Virus genome (UHGV): UHGV-0106419
Direction: 5' to 3' (one strand)
Source: a virus
DNA length: 25,684 nucleotides
Shown here: positions 15,198 to 20,003 of the stretch, in pieces
Position numbering within the stretch: the first letter of the stretch is position 1
How the letters are laid out: each line of letters begins with the position of its first letter
Translations under genes and position numbers: made by a program
The notes under the pieces: generated by a model
Databases searched by the model: none
Told to the model about the DNA's origin: nothing
What the model saw: the letters and a program-made list of their open reading frames with translations, nothing else

Positions 15198-15556
15198 TTT
15201 TTATTCTCCGGTGCTTTCGGCATTACTGCCCAGTGGGTAATATTGACGTTTTCAAGGTCCCCGACCTGAAATGTCCACTGCCATTCTCCGGTTTCTTTTT
15301 GCCCCCATGTGTACCAGAGAGAACGCCAGCCAATCAGCCAGCCTTCTCCATTAGCATCAAATAACAGAACACTTTCATGTGCTGGCGGCAGTTCAGCTGA
15401 CACTGGTATTACTTTGTTTTCCAGTGCTGCACATTTAGCTTCAAGCGCATCGAATTTACGTATCAGGTATTCAGCATCCGTTTCATTCACTTTCAGATCT
15501 CGCGGTACACATTTCCCGCGAAGAAACCCTTCCATTTCGAAAACATTCATGCGCAT
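15194..15556 (-). CDS. Hypothetical phage early protein (120 aa), Trp-rich C-terminus
   Basis: ORF in the early-left operon overlapping the HD-hydrolase gene end; no motif recognised. Confidence 0.45.
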   Translation of the reverse strand: MRMNVFEMEGFLRGKCVPRDLKVNETDAEYLIRKFDALEAKCAALENKVIPVSAELPPAHESVLLFDANGEGWLIGWRSLWYTWGQKETGEWQWTFQVGDLENVNITHWAVMPKAPENKK

Positions 15557-16083
15557 TTGCGTAACTCCGATAACTCGTTGAAGCGCTCAATAAACATCCC
15601 GTAGGCATGGCTCGGTGCCAGTGGAATCACGTTGAACATCTCTGTTGCCGGGATACCTTCCAGTACAGGCCAGAAAGAGCCATCATCAAGCCCGAGATCG
15701 CGGCGTTCGGTTGCCAGCATGATGAGATCGGCATATTTCACAGGCGTGCTCATAACCGTGGGTAACCCGTATTTCTCACGGATTACGGCGTCTATTTTTT
15801 CTTCCATCCGTTTATAGTCGGGAAGAAGGCGTTTCAGTGGCGCGGGGATGTCCTGGCAATACGCTTCTGTCGCATCATGCATTAACGCTTCAAAAGCAAA
15901 TTCCTGCGGTACCAGCTGGCTGCAAAGCACCGCATGTTGGGCGACGCTGTAGAAGTGTGAAAGATGGCCGGCAAAGCGACAGATATTTGAAAGGGAAACC
16001 GCGATATCGTTAATATCGATGTTGTCTTTATTTATCCTGTCATAATAAAAATGCTTCCCGGAAAAAGTTTTAATAAATGACAT
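15547..16083 (-). CDS. HD-domain phosphohydrolase (YfbR-like 5'-deoxynucleotidase family), 178 aa
   Basis: H...HD metal-binding pattern (SVAQHAV ... ALMHDATEAY). Start placed at MSFIKTF (ATG 16083) with GGAGAA RBS; the ORF-track start at 16143 is an unsupported extension. Confidence 0.65.
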   Translation of the reverse strand: MSFIKTFSGKHFYYDRINKDNIDINDIAVSLSNICRFAGHLSHFYSVAQHAVLCSQLVPQEFAFEALMHDATEAYCQDIPAPLKRLLPDYKRMEEKIDAVIREKYGLPTVMSTPVKYADLIMLATERRDLGLDDGSFWPVLEGIPATEMFNVIPLAPSHAYGMFIERFNELSELRKCA

Positions 16084-16564
16084 TTTGTTCTCCACGTTAT
16101 ATGCGCTGCACCGCGCTGAATTCGGGTAAAAGGAAGCCCTCACCGTCCGGCGATTATTGAGTCAATTACATTTCCATAAATGCCCCCGTAGGGGCGGTTA
16201 GTTTCTCCACAAAACAGAGAAGAACACCTGCGGTGGCAGCCGCCCGGATGGATTGGGTTATGAGCCCGTCGTCCGATGATGCTCTTCTCTGTTTTGTAAA
16301 AAGGACGGTACCAGCCGGAAGCAAGGGTACAAGCTGGTACCGCCAAGACAACACACAGCATAAAGTTGTGGTGCCGGGTGCCTCCCGGTGCCTGGCGAAG
16401 GTTGTACACCAGACGGGTGGGTATCCACAGAAGGTCGACTGTCAGCCTTAACCTTAACCCGCGTGCGCTGAGCCGCATTCACCACAACGCTAAGGATTCT
16501 CTCTGGTTGAAAATACTTAGCTGTTATGTGCCTGCTTTTAGCCACATCAGGCGAGGTGGACCTG

Positions 16565-16600
16565 GTTATTCCCCAACAACAAGGATTCGGTATAATCTGG
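16565..16600 (+). promoter_or_regulatory. Candidate promoter for the micro-ORF/SieB-like operon (consensus -10 TATAAT at 16591-16596)
   Basis: Exact TATAAT about 33 nt upstream of the first micro-ORF; the -35 is poor (TTATTC). Confidence 0.3.
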
Positions 16601-16628
16601 ATATCCCAACAACAGGTAGGAAGGAAAT

Positions 16629-16712
16629 ATGTACGTAGATAGCAATGAAAAATTTCATGTTCCGGTAAATCAGAGACCAGCACCGATCCCTGAGCCGAAA
16701 CCTGAAATGTAA
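16629..16712 (+). CDS. Micro-ORF A (27 aa): MYVDSNEKFHVPVNQRPAPIPEPKPEM
   Basis: ATG preceded by AGGAAGGA RBS; shares the H-x-P...RP-x-P-x-PEPKP motif with micro-ORFs B and C; ends 10 nt before the SieB-like start. Confidence 0.4.
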   Translation: MYVDSNEKFHVPVNQRPAPIPEPKPEM

Positions 16713-16722
16713 GGGAATAGAG

Positions 16723-17202
16723 ATGACTCGAGACGATCTAGCATTCGATATTCATTATTCTTTCTTTCTTGAGAAAATGAATTACACCCTTTTAAATCGG
16801 ATAGACAAGAGCATAACTCTTGTTCTCATTGTCTTGGGCTTTTCTGTTTTTGCGCCATATAGCAATATGTTTATTTTTGGCGCATCTGTAGCTATTTTGT
16901 CGGTGCTTCAATTGGTATACCAATTTGGGCAGGAAGCTGGCTTATCAAAGGAACAGATGCGACAGTATAAAAGGTTGATTGTTGAGTTTTCCTCCCTTTC
17001 TGATGACGAACTACGCACTCGGTTTTTAAAGGTTCAAGACGCTGATAGTAATCCATGGAGATCTTTACAAGATGCTGCGTTCAAACGGACCTGTATTGCG
17101 CTGGGACGTGTTGATGAGTCAGAAATATCATTCATGCATAGCGTTATCGCATGGTTTGCTGGAGATTTGCCTCGGTCAAAAAGGTGTAATAATGACAAAT
17201 AG
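16723..17202 (+). CDS. SieB-like small membrane protein (159 aa), putative superinfection exclusion
   Basis: Two adjacent hydrophobic segments (ITLVLIVLGFSVFAPY, MFIFGASVAILSVLQLVY). Encoded opposite to the pL operon next to the cI-like repressor, as sieB is in lambda and Rac. AGGGA RBS. Confidence 0.45.
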   Translation: MTRDDLAFDIHYSFFLEKMNYTLLNRIDKSITLVLIVLGFSVFAPYSNMFIFGASVAILSVLQLVYQFGQEAGLSKEQMRQYKRLIVEFSSLSDDELRTRFLKVQDADSNPWRSLQDAAFKRTCIALGRVDESEISFMHSVIAWFAGDLPRSKRCNNDK

Positions 17203-17308
17203 AATTCCCATAATCCCTAACCATGTACCTCCAAAGCCCAGACCACCATCACCAAAGTCACACAGGCTTTATGAGTATGAATTAATAATGGATTCTATAT
17301 TGAGATGA
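17192..17308 (+). CDS. Micro-ORF B (38 aa): MTNRIPIIPNHVPPKPRPPSPKSHRLYEYELIMDSILR
   Basis: Overlaps the SieB-like stop in another frame; shares the proline-rich motif. Confidence 0.35.
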   Translation: MTNRIPIIPNHVPPKPRPPSPKSHRLYEYELIMDSILR

Positions 17309-17312
17309 CCAA

Positions 17313-17402
17313 ATGAATGCATTTATATATACATGGAAAGAGGATCATATACCCTTAAAACCTCGTCCTTCACCGCCAGAACCGAAGCCAAAATCCCGTT
17401 AA
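17313..17402 (+). CDS. Micro-ORF C (29 aa): MNAFIYTWKEDHIPLKPRPSPPEPKPKSR
   Basis: Starts 5 nt after micro-ORF B; shares the motif HIPLKPRPSPPEPKPK. Confidence 0.35.
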   Translation: MNAFIYTWKEDHIPLKPRPSPPEPKPKSR

Positions 17403-17537
17403 GTGTTGGGGATCTCCAGATTGTTAAAGAGCGAAGCGTCCTATAGGGCGCTTTTTTGTTGCTAACGAATCATCCTGGACTTCATATGCCCCAGGCGGCT
17501 ACTTCGTGGGCGTCCTACCTGTTCGTTGTTTCTCTTG

Positions 17538-17570
17538 GGTACATTATGTATCTCAAAGGTACATTGTCAA
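17538..17570 (-). promoter_or_regulatory. pL-like promoter with overlapping operator half-sites (GGTACA / TGTACC)
   Basis: On the minus strand: -35 TTGACA (17565-17570), 16-bp spacer, -10 CATAAT (17543-17548); GGTACA half-sites at 17538 and 17559. Confidence 0.4.
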
Positions 17571-17609: not shown

Positions 17610-18284
17610 TTAGGCTTTGATTTTGTATCTTCTTGGTTTTCCTGAGAAAATCACTGTACCAATTATAGAGCAATTACCGTTGATCTTAATGTAAGGTTCA
17701 GGCCAGTTTGGGTTTAATGCTTTGAGGTAACGCTGTGTTCCATCTTCTATCAACCGCTTGAAGGTGGTTTCGCCTGTATCGTGCATCAATGCAATAACGT
17801 CGTCACCGTGGCAGGCAGGGACTTCAGGATCAACAAAAATCATGTCTCCCGGGCGGTACTCATCAATCATTGAATCACCAATCACCCGCAAGATATAAGT
17901 CATTTCGCCACAGGGTACAGGGCAGGGGTAAGTTTCTGCTGTGCTCAAATCAACCTCAGAATAGCCAACTTCTTTCCATGCTCCGGCCTGTACCCATGAT
18001 ATGACAGGGACTAACGTTATTTGTTTGTTAGTGATTGAAACATCAGGTTTTTTTGTGATGTTCGTGGTCTGGTGTTCTTGATCAAGCCATCCGACAGGCA
18101 GGTCGAAACATTTTTCGATGTGCCGCGCCATGCTGTCACCGATATTTTTAGTAGCACCATCTCCCATAAACCTGCTGGTCTGGGTTGGCTCGCGATCAAT
18201 CATAGTGGCAAAGGAAGAATTCCCGCCAACACCATCTCTCAGTTTTCTGGCGTTAGACCGCCGGATGTCATGGATTGTTTTCAT
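17610..18284 (-). CDS. cI-like prophage repressor (N-terminal HTH, C-terminal S24 LexA-like peptidase domain), 224 aa
   Basis: S24 motifs GDSM (Ser nucleophile) and downstream Lys (FKRL); divergent from the cro-like gene; operator repeats on both sides. Confidence 0.8.
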   Translation of the reverse strand: MKTIHDIRRSNARKLRDGVGGNSSFATMIDREPTQTSRFMGDGATKNIGDSMARHIEKCFDLPVGWLDQEHQTTNITKKPDVSITNKQITLVPVISWVQAGAWKEVGYSEVDLSTAETYPCPVPCGEMTYILRVIGDSMIDEYRPGDMIFVDPEVPACHGDDVIALMHDTGETTFKRLIEDGTQRYLKALNPNWPEPYIKINGNCSIIGTVIFSGKPRRYKIKA

Positions 18285-18298
18285 AACGAAATTAAAAC

Positions 18299-18369
18299 CC
18301 TTGTACCGTTAAGGTACAAGTATCTTGAAGGTTCATTTTAATCATGTAATATGTACACCGGAGGTACAT
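18299..18369. promoter_or_regulatory. OR-like operator/promoter region between the cI-like and cro-like genes
   Basis: Palindromes CTTGTACC-GTTAA-GGTACAAG (18299-18319) and ATGTAC-ACCGGAG-GTACAT (18351-18369); candidate PR -35 TTGAAG (18325-18330) and -10 TAATAT (18347-18352), 16-bp spacer. Confidence 0.5.
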
Positions 18370-18374
18370 ATTGT

Positions 18375-18575
18375 ATGAAAGCGTATTGGGACTCTTTAAC
18401 CAAAGAACAGCAGGGCGAGTTGGCCGGAAAAGTTGGCTCAACACCTGGCTACTTACGGCTGGTTTTCAATGGCTATAAAAAAGCCAGTTTTGTGCTGGCT
18501 AAAAAACTTGAGCAATGCACGTCAGGTGCAATTACGAAATCTGACTTAAGACCGGATATCTATCCGAAAGATTAA
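18375..18575 (+). CDS. Cro-like / YdaS-family small DNA-binding protein (66 aa)
   Basis: Start at MKAYWDS (ATG 18375) with GGAGG RBS; small HTH-type protein divergent from the repressor; resembles YdaS-type proteins as recalled. Confidence 0.55.
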   Translation: MKAYWDSLTKEQQGELAGKVGSTPGYLRLVFNGYKKASFVLAKKLEQCTSGAITKSDLRPDIYPKD

Positions 18576-19170: not shown

Positions 19171-20003
19171 ACAGTTTAACGGCAAATAACCGTTTGTCGC
19201 AACAGCTGGTGGTCAGTGTCGCTGAACACCTGTTGTTACGGCATGAATGCAGATTACCAAATCTCCTGGCTGTAAGTAACCACAGAGAACTTTACCTGAC
19301 TGTGGGGGGCGAGTTGTGCAGGAACTTAACCGCTGGTTTCGTGACGGAAGAGGACTTTATGTTCATGTTATTCGTTGGGAGCCAGAAACACAGCGCGTTA
19401 TCTATCTTCGCAAAGACTACCCGCATGAGTGCTTTAGTCCTTTGTGGAAATTCAGGCGTGATTTTGTTGAGTGTGAAGGACCACCAGCACATTGATTCTG
19501 CCATTCCGGGACGTTACACTGTTCAGGCACCTTATAAAGCGGGTGCCGGGATTGGCGTCCTGGAATTGATCAAGGCGATATATGACGCGCCAGCGTCTTT
19601 TTTATCGTCCGCATTTGCTCACATCAAAGTTATGGTGGGCTGGGCGGGGGCATCGAAAGATGCGCCGGTTTCCTTGATCACCGGTTACGCCAACCCCGTT
19701 CAGTTCACCACCAGCGAAATTGGCGTTTCCGGTGGTGGAAGTATTTCACCGATCAAGGAGGCTGCCATCATGGCTACTGTCCCAGCCCTCACTCGTCTGA
19801 ATGATGAAGACTTACATAAACTCAGTTATGTAACAACTGCACTACGTGCTCTGCGCAAGGTAACTCTTTCGGATCCGCAGGCACATCAGGTTCTGGTAGA
19901 AACCCTTCTTAACTTGCAAGCTGAACGTATTCGTCTGGCGGATAAGGCTAATTTTCATATTCACCGTCTCCTGAATATCAGCGGAGGGCATCGTCATGCT
20001 TAA
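19167..20003 (+). CDS. Hypothetical phage protein (278 aa) in the replication module
   Basis: ATGA start/stop overlap with the upstream gene; no motif recognised. Confidence 0.5.
   Translation: MNSLTANNRLSQQLVVSVAEHLLLRHECRLPNLLAVSNHRELYLTVGGELCRNLTAGFVTEEDFMFMLFVGSQKHSALSIFAKTTRMSALVLCGNSGVILLSVKDHQHIDSAIPGRYTVQAPYKAGAGIGVLELIKAIYDAPASFLSSAFAHIKVMVGWAGASKDAPVSLITGYANPVQFTTSEIGVSGGGSISPIKEAAIMATVPALTRLNDEDLHKLSYVTTALRALRKVTLSDPQAHQVLVETLLNLQAERIRLADKANFHIHRLLNISGGHRHA

What the first reader, a model, noticed from the sequence alone, without database searches (positions are those of the whole stretch)
16565..17402. Three paralogous proline-rich micro-ORFs bracket a SieB-like membrane protein in a lysogen-oriented operon
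Three small ORFs (27, 38 and 29 aa) share a motif: HVPVNQRPAPIPEPKPE, HVPPKPRPPSPKS and HIPLKPRPSPPEPKPKS. The DNA encoding it uses different codons in each copy (AGA vs CGT for Arg, CCG/CCA/CCT for Pro), so conservation is at the peptide level, which argues for selection on the peptides. They flank a two-TM 159-aa protein in the sieB position, on the strand opposite to pL. Possible roles: ribosome-stalling leader or regulatory peptides (PP/PRP motifs are EF-P-dependent stall sites), or secreted/ribosome-targeting peptides resembling proline-rich antimicrobial peptides. I do not recognise this as a described module.
Basis: partly seen in the sequence, partly recalled or inferred. Interest (0 to 1): 0.7.

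Follow-up and report, generated by a model that had tools for sequence, protein, structure and literature searches.

The report
Proline-rich micro-genes around a prophage membrane protein
Three tiny, unannotated proline-rich genes flanking a two-transmembrane prophage protein are real and conserved, and are found only with that protein family, forming an undescribed gene module beside the phage repressor whose mechanism is still unknown.

Summary
The window is an SfV/CPS-53-like lambdoid prophage of E. coli. A self-contained cassette lies just downstream of pL/OL and antisense to it. It consists of a -10 box, micro-ORF U (27 aa), a 159-aa two-TM protein (PHROG 6315, function unknown), micro-ORFs D1 (38 aa) and D2 (29 aa), and a terminator.

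Across 46 distinct variants of the 2TM protein (about 25-100% identity; Enterobacterales, Morganella, Vibrio), 44 have a Pro-rich micro-ORF ending 8-12 nt before the 2TM start, against 7.6% of control ORFs. The Enterobacterales clade adds 0-3 downstream copies. Each copy has an ATG and a Shine-Dalgarno sequence. Substitutions fall on third codon positions (pN/pS 0.2-0.3, like the 2TM gene).

In IMG/VR the back-translated core H-[VI]-P-P-x-P-R-P-P occurs next to this gene in 41 of 52 hits; the other 11 are chance frames in contigs of 54-73% G+C. One lineage fuses the motif in frame to the 2TM C-terminus.

The ORFs are therefore translated small genes dedicated to this protein, not fragments. 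Their role is not resolved. I favour cytoplasmic polyproline-II ligands or gates of a membrane effector. An EF-P-dependent leader or translational throttle is a close rival. SieB and SLATT membership are not supported by sequence. I found no description in the libraries or the literature searched.

The parts
16566..16617 (+). Conserved hotspot leader: direct repeats CCCCAACAACAAGG (16571-16584) and CCCAACAACAGG (16606-16617) flank a perfect TATAAT (16591-16596). This is the presumed cassette promoter and 5'UTR.
   Evidence: Sequence. The same leader precedes different cargo genes in PhiR29_1, SfIV and Klebsiella phage Kp4882-1 and is recognisable in most related loci. The consensus scan found no matching -35, so promoter function is inferred.
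16629..16712 (+). Micro-ORF U, 27 aa (MYVDSNEKFHVPVNQRPAPIPEPKPEM). It has a strong SD (GGAAGGA). Its stop lies 10 nt before the 2TM ATG, and the 2TM SD abuts that stop.
   Evidence: The upstream Pro-rich ORF is conserved in 44 of 46 2TM variants, against 7.6% of control ORFs.
16723..17202 (+). 159-aa two-TM protein with both termini predicted cytoplasmic, a long helical hairpin, four short C-terminal helices, and conserved QDADSNPW and AW.AGDLP motifs. It belongs to PHROG 6315 (unknown function).
   Evidence: The family has 245 clusters at 50% identity.
17192..17308 (+). Micro-ORF D1, 38 aa (MTNRIPIIPNHVPPKPRPPSPKS...). It has an AAGGTG SD, and its ATG overlaps the 3' end of the 2TM ORF in the +1 frame, which suggests translational coupling.
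   Evidence: The core motif is exclusive to this module in IMG/VR.
17313..17402 (+). Micro-ORF D2, 29 aa (MNAFIYTWKEDHIPLKPRPSPPEPKPKSR). It is a U-like paralogue that starts 4 nt after the D1 stop.
17409..17422 (+). Right arm of an inverted repeat (GGGATCTCCAGATT) complementary to 16594-16607 (AATCTGGATATCCC). It marks a cassette boundary that is conserved with other cargo.
   Evidence: 14 nt, 93% complementary. Conservation of the right end is shown.
17433..17460 (+). Intrinsic terminator that closes the cassette: a 9-bp stem followed by a T run.
17527..17570 (-). Context: the pL-like promoter (TTGACA-16-CATAAT) with two operator-like sites (OL). It transcribes antisense through the cassette towards yfdR and int.

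Best explanation
The region is a four-gene, lysogen-expressed moron cassette. It sits in a cargo-exchange hotspot between pL/OL and the early-left genes of an SfV/CPS-53-like prophage.

The core is a two-TM membrane protein (PHROG 6315) with a SLATT-like helical hairpin architecture. It is always preceded by a translationally coupled Pro-rich micro-gene (U). In Enterobacterales it is also followed by 0-3 coupled paralogues (D).

Shown:
- The micro-ORFs are under peptide-level purifying selection.
- They keep their own ATG and SD.
- They are found essentially only with this protein.
- The motif can be duplicated in tandem or fused to the cytoplasmic C-terminus of the 2TM protein.

Inferred:
- The peptides are made in the cytoplasm as short polyproline-II, mostly basic micro-proteins.
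- They dock on the cytoplasmic C-terminal domain of the 2TM protein and gate or restrain it, as an antitoxin-like subunit or a sensor adaptor.
- The 2TM protein acts as a membrane-perturbing exclusion or abortive-infection effector in the lysogen.
- pL transcription across the cassette silences it when the prophage itself goes lytic.
For: - Coding and selected: third-codon-position entropy is 1.64 bits against 0.53 bits at positions 1 and 2. pN/pS is 0.22-0.30, and 0.28 for the 2TM gene itself. ATG plus SD is conserved in 39 variants.
- Dedicated partnership: 44 of 46 variants have the upstream ORF against a 7.6% background. It persists in 25-40%-identity relatives in Morganella and Vibrio. 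Of 52 IMG/VR hits to the back-translated motif, 41 lie next to the 2TM gene, and the rest are chance frames in contigs of 54-73% G+C.
- The same hotspot leader drives other cargo without such ORFs, so the ORFs belong to the 2TM gene and not to the site.
- Physical link: there is an in-frame fusion of the motif to the 2TM C-terminus in Pectobacterium (P0022), and D-D fusions in L002, L072 and L081.
- In the AF2 model of the fusion, the last 10 residues of the tail reach pLDDT 79 with no alignment support.
- Non-proline positions are conserved: His, one aliphatic residue, basic residues, and DYEE[KR]H in U.
- The window's own U has no consecutive prolines yet keeps the xPxP pattern.
- The topology places the C-terminal domain in the cytoplasm, and the peptides have no signal or TM segment.
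- Context: the cassette is always counter-oriented in prophage immunity or early regions and lies antisense to pL.
Against: - There is no direct evidence of translation, of peptide stability or of binding.
- In distant relatives only the Pro/basic run of U is kept (PPP to PPPPP), which fits a stalling leader as well as a ligand.
- No defence-system model matches, and no phenotype is known.
- SLATT membership is not confirmed by sequence.
- Free Pro-rich peptides of 21-38 aa as specific protein ligands in bacteria have little precedent.
Confidence: 0.38

Rival explanations
1. Cis-acting translational control. U is a leader ORF whose Pro-Pro or poly-Pro codons slow or stall ribosomes in an EF-P-dependent way. 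Because the 2TM SD abuts the U stop codon, ribosome flux through U throttles or gates synthesis of a potentially toxic membrane protein. The D ORFs are duplicated copies with a similar local effect, such as mRNA protection or queueing. The peptides themselves have no role.
For: - U is the ancestral, nearly universal element and always ends 8-12 nt before the 2TM ATG.
- In remote relatives only the Pro run and basic C-terminus persist, often as the strongest stall motifs: PPP, PPPP and PPPPP.
- All ORFs overlap or abut each other, which favours coupling.
- Precedents from my own knowledge: the mgtL/mgtP proline-codon leaders and EF-P-dependent CadC. Sequence context modulates poly-Pro stalling (PMC4176338, listed).
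Against: - The window's own U (100% identical in 52 E. coli genomes) has no consecutive prolines.
- The leader RNA has no significant structure that could switch (z=+0.56).
- The distance from the last PP to the 2TM ATG varies from about 16 to 37 nt, so there is no fixed occlusion geometry.
- ORFs downstream of the regulated gene have no obvious cis role.
- Conserved His, aliphatic and basic positions, and the in-frame fusion to the protein C-terminus, are not needed for stalling.
Confidence: 0.3
2. The peptides are the active agents. They are endogenously made PrAMP-like inhibitors that bind the ribosomal exit tunnel or DnaK. They shut down translation or chaperone function during infection, or act on neighbours after lysis. 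The 2TM protein serves as an accessory, for release, immunity or a trigger.
For: - Local alignments to apidaecin, pyrrhocoricin, Bac7 and metalnikowin score above composition-matched shuffles. Of 56 pairs, 14 reach p<=0.02.
- Cores such as PKPRPPSPK against PQPRPPHPR, and PRPRPP against oncocin PRPRPP, illustrate the match.
- D peptides are basic (net +2.6 to +2.7).
- Api occupies the tunnel like a nascent chain and is active when expressed inside E. coli (PMC11549390).
Against: - The Api-family defining C-terminus PRPPHPRL, with its Arg-Leu-COOH warhead, is not kept. The micro-ORFs end 2-16 residues after PRPP in K, R, G or acidic residues.
- U peptides are acidic or neutral.
- Constitutive expression of a translation inhibitor in a lysogen would be costly.
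- There is no export signal.
- Much of the similarity reflects a shared PxP/basic periodicity.
Confidence: 0.1
3. The ORFs are not genes. They are chance open frames, remnants of a larger frameshifted gene, or a by-product of a selected C-rich RNA or DNA element.
For: - One lineage has the motif fused in frame to the 2TM protein.
- The D1 frame is open for 78 codons upstream over the 2TM 3' end.
- RefSeq annotates none of the three ORFs.
Against: - The motif count is 3 against 0.043 in shuffles.
- Separate ATG plus SD is conserved in 39 variants.
- Variation is concentrated at third positions and pN/pS is 0.2-0.3.
- The reading frame is preserved across 25-100% identity of the neighbouring gene.
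- No DNA repeat links the copies.
Confidence: 0.03

Closest known systems
SLATT (SMODS and SLOG-associating 2TM) effector domains of CBASS-, retron- and DRT-type defence systems
   Same: - Small protein built on a two-TM helical hairpin with flanking cytoplasmic helices.
- Some homologues are named SLATT by UniRef.
- The top BFVD fold matches are SLATT-annotated proteins with probability 0.96-0.99.
- It occurs in mobile, conflict-related loci.
   Different: - No Pfam SLATT model matches any of 54 members tested.
- Foldseek E-values are only 0.07-0.5.
- No nucleotide-synthase, SLOG, TIR or RT partner is nearby.
- The partners here are Pro-rich micro-ORFs.
SieB of lambda/P22 (and RexB): lysogen-expressed membrane proteins in the immunity region that abort superinfecting phage
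   Same: - It is a membrane protein expressed from its own signals next to pL/cI, counter-oriented to pL.
- That lambda sieB is likewise counter-oriented to pL is from memory, not checked here.
- It is carried as a moron.
   Different: - There is no sequence match to the SieB family at E<=1.
- It is 159 aa with 2 TM segments; SieB is about 192 aa (from memory, not checked here).
- To my knowledge, SieB has no Pro-rich companion ORFs. From memory, its self-immunity comes from an internal start (Esc).
- No function was tested here.
Proline-rich antimicrobial peptides (apidaecin type II; oncocin, Bac7, pyrrhocoricin type I)
   Same: - They are short, Pro/Arg/Lys-rich, PPII-type peptides with PRPP or PRPRPP cores preceded by an aromatic or His residue plus an aliphatic residue.
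- The similarity is above composition controls.
   Different: - These peptides are bacterial and phage-encoded, cytoplasmic and unprocessed.
- They lack the conserved PRPPHPRL-COOH pharmacophore.
- U copies are acidic.
- The resemblance is convergent, with no homology shown.
Proline-codon and arrest leader ORFs (mgtL/mgtP, SecM, TnaC) and coupled leader-toxin pairs (mok/hok)
   Same: - A short ORF lies immediately upstream of, and coupled to, a membrane or toxic protein gene.
- PP/PPP runs are expected to depend on EF-P.
   Different: - No alternative RNA structure is present.
- Extra copies lie downstream of the regulated gene.
- The window's U has no PP.
- The motif is also found fused to the protein.
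Type II toxin-antitoxin operons
   Same: A small upstream gene is translationally coupled to a potentially toxic downstream gene on a mobile element.
   Different: - The small products are 21-38 aa, with no DNA-binding fold.
- There are several paralogous copies on both sides of the larger gene.
- Toxicity of the 2TM protein is not demonstrated.

Membership tests
SieB (Pfam SieB family) | Sequence match to the SieB family profile | tested here: not met
   A Pfam scan of the 159-aa protein at E<=1 returned only a spurious Ion_trans_N hit.
SieB (Pfam SieB family) | Lysogen-expressed gene in the pL region, next to the repressor | tested here: met
   pL/OL lies at 17527-17570 on the - strand, and the cassette is on the + strand between pL and yfdR. 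The same context is seen in about 40 related loci. The lambda comparison is from memory.
SieB (Pfam SieB family) | Aborts superinfecting phage development | not testable with these tools
   This needs phage challenge of lysogens with and without the cassette.
SLATT 2TM effector | Match to a Pfam or NCBIfam SLATT model | tested here: not met
   There is no SLATT hit for the window protein, for 3 close homologues, or for 50 remote members.
SLATT 2TM effector | Two-TM helical hairpin flanked by cytoplasmic helices | tested here: met
   AF2 gives H3-43 and H50-87 plus four short helices, at pLDDT 77-83. Hydropathy and the positive-inside rule agree.
SLATT 2TM effector | Fold similarity to SLATT proteins | tested here: inconclusive
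   The top BFVD hits are SLATT-annotated (probability up to 0.99), but with E 0.07-0.5 and TM 0.3-0.58. PDB searches are non-specific.
SLATT 2TM effector | Genomic association with a SMODS, SLOG, TIR or RT sensor/enzyme | tested here: not met
   The neighbours are phage repressor, cro, yfdP/Q/R, ParB-like and replication genes only.
Type II PrAMP (apidaecin family) | Conserved C-terminal PRPPHPRL with penultimate Arg and terminal Leu carboxylate (PMC11549390) | tested here: not met
   PRPP is frequent, but the C-termini vary (…PGK, …APKG, …RPR, …KSR, …KDEDD) and none ends in RL.
Type II PrAMP (apidaecin family) | Secreted, processed from a pre-pro-polyprotein | tested here: not met
   Each ORF stands alone with ATG plus SD and has no signal peptide or hydrophobic segment.
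Type II PrAMP (apidaecin family) | Traps release factor on the ribosome, or inhibits translation | not testable with these tools
   This needs toeprinting or in vitro translation with synthetic peptides.
EF-P-dependent poly-proline leader / arrest ORF | Consecutive prolines (PP/PPP) in a short ORF upstream of the regulated gene | tested here: inconclusive
   This holds for nearly all U variants, up to PPPPP. It is absent from the window's own U (RPAPIPEPKPEM).
EF-P-dependent poly-proline leader / arrest ORF | Stall linked to an RNA switch or to fixed occlusion of the downstream RBS | tested here: not met
   The leader fold has z=+0.56. The PP-to-ATG distance varies from about 16 to 37 nt.
Known anti-phage defence systems (PADLOC-DB v2) | Match of any component to a defence-system model | tested here: not met
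   There are no hits at E<=1 for the 2TM protein or the three peptides.

The most novel reading that the evidence does not exclude
The Pro-rich micro-ORFs form a translation-linked sensor or effector layer of a prophage defence. One version: they are endogenous PrAMP-like peptides that engage the ribosome exit tunnel or DnaK. The other version: they act as an EF-P/ribosome-state gate that decides when a pore-forming 2TM protein is made. Either would be a bacterial or phage counterpart of animal proline-rich antimicrobial peptides, or a new class of arrest peptide wired to abortive infection.
Probability: 0.15. Interest if true: 0.85.

Novelty: new variant of a known kind. Interest (0 to 1): 0.62.

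Why it matters
Small ORFs are routinely missed; none of these three is annotated in RefSeq. Here a whole family of micro-genes of 21-38 codons shows clear purifying selection. It has a strict partnership with one widespread phage protein family (245 clusters at 50% identity; PHROG 6315, 'unknown function'). It also occupies a fixed place in prophage immunity regions of Enterobacterales and Vibrionales.

This gives a function-unknown phage orthologous group a defined multi-gene architecture. It also gives a concrete set of cheap experiments: tagging, delta-efp reporters, toxicity rescue and phage challenge.

If the peptides gate a membrane effector, this would be a new type of regulator for 2TM defence effectors. 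If they act through the ribosome, EF-P or DnaK, they would link proline-rich peptide biology to phage-phage competition.

Tried and rejected
- Pfam, NCBIfam, PADLOC and PHROG scans of the three peptides gave nothing.
- Pfam and NCBIfam scans of the 2TM protein and of 50 remote members gave no SLATT or SieB hit.
- The afdb50 fold library was unavailable.
- RNA-switch idea: the leader region 16600-16800 folds no better than shuffles.
- Frameshift or fragment idea: rejected on conserved starts and SDs and on codon statistics.
- DNA-repeat origin of the motif: no direct repeats link the copies.
- A protein-database search for the peptides failed. The D1 alignment was too short, and a 49-aa natural D1-D3 fusion found only itself.
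- Five literature searches found no description: SLATT/prophage/proline-rich; polyproline/leader peptide/EF-P/phage defense; superinfection exclusion/small protein; accession WP_000196297; uORF/toxin/prophage.
- The genome-contig scan returned only 3 loci.
Full report
**1. What is in the window**

The window is a lambdoid prophage of the SfV / CPS-53 (KpLE1) type.
- yfdR-like 5'-deoxynucleotidase: 15547-16143 (-).
- S24 LexA-like repressor: 17610-18284 (-).
- cro: 18351-18575 (+).
- C4 and isrK RNAs lie further right.

Between yfdR and the repressor lies a compact + strand unit.
- A perfect TATAAT (16591-16596) flanked by two CCCAACAACA repeats.
- Micro-ORF U (16629-16712, 27 aa), with a strong SD.
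- A 159-aa ORF (16723-17202).
- Micro-ORF D1 (17192-17308, 38 aa). Its ATG overlaps the end of the 159-aa ORF by 11 nt and is preceded by AAGGTG.
- Micro-ORF D2 (17313-17402, 29 aa).
- An intrinsic terminator (17433-17454).

The motif occurs 3 times, against 0.043 expected in dinucleotide shuffles. No DNA repeat links the copies.

**2. Orientation and site**

Just right of the terminator, on the - strand, sits TTGACA-16-CATAAT (17570->17543). It is overlapped by two 17-bp sites, TGTAyC...GGTACA. These recur three times between the repressor gene and cro. They are OL/pL and OR.

The cassette therefore lies immediately downstream of pL and antisense to it. That is the expected layout for a gene expressed in the lysogen and silenced when pL fires.

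The cassette (16560-17460) is 99.9-100% identical in 52 complete E. coli genomes, including strain 042. There only the 159-aa CDS is annotated. It is absent from the phage collection. Related phages (PhiR29_1, SfIV, SfV, SfII, Klebsiella Kp4882-1) share the flanks, including the leader and the terminator side, but carry other cargo genes without Pro-rich ORFs.

This is a cargo-exchange hotspot, and the micro-ORFs travel with the 2TM gene, not with the site.

**3. The 159-aa protein**
- It has two hydrophobic segments with a short loop. Basic residues lie on both sides, so both termini should be cytoplasmic.
- AF2 gives a long helical hairpin (3-43, 50-87) followed by four short helices (pLDDT 77; 83 for a homologue).
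- Conserved motifs are QDADSNPW and AW.AGDLP near the C-terminus.
- It matches PHROG 6315, 'unknown function'.
- It matches nothing in Pfam, NCBIfam, PADLOC or PDB.
- Some homologues carry the UniRef name 'SLATT'. The best BFVD fold hits are SLATT-annotated proteins, with weak statistics.
- An exhaustive profile search finds 245 clusters at 50% identity, all about 150-180 aa.

'SieB-like' is valid for position only.

**4. Conservation of the micro-ORFs**

I collected 87 loci with close-to-moderate relatives (39 distinct proteins with usable flanks, 45-100% identity).
- In every one the gene is counter-oriented next to a prophage repressor.
- Essentially every locus has an upstream ORF with ATG and SD, ending 8-20 nt before the 2TM ATG. 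Its consensus is ..DYEE[KR]H[ML]P..[KQ][RK]PPAPPKPK[DE]...
- Two apparent exceptions turned out to be a P->T variant and a shortened MPPEPK... ORF.
- Downstream ORF counts across the 39 variants are 0 (2 variants), 1 (18), 2 (15) and 3 (4).
- The downstream types are recognisable: MS[KR]PIEPFH[VI]PP[KR]PRPP.PGK; MSKP.PIIPNHVPPKPRPPAP....H.HVP..PRPPAPP.K; and ..EGPRPDS[QH][IV]PP[KR]PRP.PRPR.
- Some downstream ORFs are fused to each other (L002, L072, L081).
- In Pectobacterium the motif is fused in frame to the 2TM C-terminus.

Remote relatives (25-40% identity) in Morganella, Vibrio and metagenomes sit in prophage early regions too. Most keep one upstream Pro-rich ORF at the same spacing and have no downstream copies. 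Examples:
- MKYINSCGERRDYQPPRPRPTPPPK
- MIHLFAVGDGPTPNKKGGSNGRPPPPKK
- ...HVSPRPAPPPPPTKQK
- MIRYEERQIPKKPAPAQKPDGQVPRRPAPVPKPPQK

Overall, 44 of 46 distinct variants have a Pro-rich frame abutting the start codon, against 7.6% of 906 control ORFs. U is therefore ancestral, and the D copies are a lineage-specific expansion.

**5. Coding or not**
- For the H.PP.P[RK]PP core (32 distinct DNA versions), entropy is 0.53, 0.53 and 1.64 bits at codon positions 1, 2 and 3.
- pN/pS is 0.30 there, 0.22 for two other sub-families, and 0.28 for the 2TM gene itself.
- A scan of 2.9 million viral contigs with the back-translated core found 52 sites. Of these, 41 lie next to the 2TM gene. The other 11 are out-of-context frames in contigs of 54-73% G+C.

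The ORFs are selected protein-coding genes dedicated to this protein family. The 'frameshifted larger gene' refutation fails.

**6. Mechanism**

Two readings remain close.

(a) Trans-acting micro-proteins.
- The conserved His, the single aliphatic residue, the basic residues and the DYEE[KR]H head are not needed for mere stalling.
- The motif is repeatedly duplicated, which suggests multivalency.
- It is fused to the cytoplasmic C-terminus of its partner, a Rosetta-stone argument.
- The fused tail gains pLDDT 79 in AF2 without alignment support.
- The window's U has no consecutive prolines.

(b) Cis-acting EF-P-dependent leader.
- U is universal, tightly abuts the 2TM RBS, and in distant relatives keeps little beyond PPP to PPPPP plus Lys.
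- Against (b): the leader is unstructured, the PP-to-ATG distance varies (about 16-37 nt), and the downstream copies have no cis logic.

A third reading, PrAMP-like inhibitors, rests on similarity that beats composition-matched shuffles. It fails the apidaecin-family C-terminal pharmacophore test.

I commit to (a) at 0.38, with (b) at 0.30. The two could combine, with U acting as both a coupling leader and a ligand. The role of the 2TM protein as an exclusion or abortive-infection effector is inferred from context only.

**7. Novelty**

The libraries (Pfam, NCBIfam, PADLOC, PHROG annotation, PDB, Rfam) and five full-text searches hold no description of this module. The kind of thing is known: a lysogen-expressed membrane moron next to the repressor, with a SLATT-like architecture. 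The dedicated Pro-rich micro-gene partners are new. I rate it a new variant of a known kind, with interest 0.62.

Noticed in passing
window 16594-16607 and 17409-17422: A 14-nt inverted repeat (AATCTGGATATCCC / GGGATCTCCAGATT, 93% complementary) brackets the cassette. The left arm lies between the -10 box and the U SD; the right arm lies just before the terminator. The flanking stretches at both ends of the cassette are conserved in phages with other cargo. The repeat could pair the 5' and 3' UTRs of the cassette mRNA, or mark cassette-exchange junctions.
   Followed up: partly
window 16571-16617 (also L144-L150 upstream regions): Two direct repeats (CCCCAACAACAAGG and CCCAACAACAGG) flank the TATAAT box. 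The layout 'repeat, -10-like box, repeat, SD, U' recurs with different repeat sequences in Morganella (CCCCAACAAACA x2) and Vibrio (ACCAATAGA x2; GCCACTAAG x2) loci. This may be a regulator-binding or Hfq (ARN)n-type site. No -35 match was found.
   Followed up: no
window 16150-16560, - strand: This is a highly structured, non-coding-looking stretch on the pL transcript. Its MFE is -166 kcal/mol, z=-6.4 against shuffles. It includes a long near-perfect hairpin at about 16208-16298. Positions 16295-16518 match Rfam STnc100 at 40.4 bits, below the gathering score of 47, with E=6e-7. It is conserved in SfV, SfII, SfIV, ST64B and Stx2c phages. In E. coli 042 it is annotated as a frameshifted hypothetical gene. 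It is a candidate pL-leader, antitermination or sRNA element.
   Followed up: partly
window 17527-17570 and 18302-18369: The operator-like 17-bp sites TGTAyC..N..GGTACA occur twice over a strong leftward promoter and three times between the repressor gene and cro. This defines OL/pL and OR of this prophage.
   Followed up: yes
window 19527-19603 and 19628-19715, + strand; 2862-2934: Rfam matches above the gathering score are isrK Hfq-binding RNA, C4 antisense RNA (P1/P7-type immunity RNA) and a tRNA gene.
   Followed up: no
L015 3001-3561 and L064 (Enterobacter-type loci): In these variants the 2TM ORF has lost its stop and runs on for about 30 codons in another frame across the D1 micro-ORF. 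The result is a 186-189-aa protein with a non-Pro acidic tail, while D1 stays intact in its own frame.
   Followed up: no
L142 (IMGVR_UViG_3300008070_000005): One remote family member lacks any Pro-rich companion ORF. It does not sit next to a repressor; an ORF that I guess, without checking, to be a baseplate/spike-type structural gene follows it. The partnership is therefore frequent but not obligatory across the whole family.
   Followed up: no
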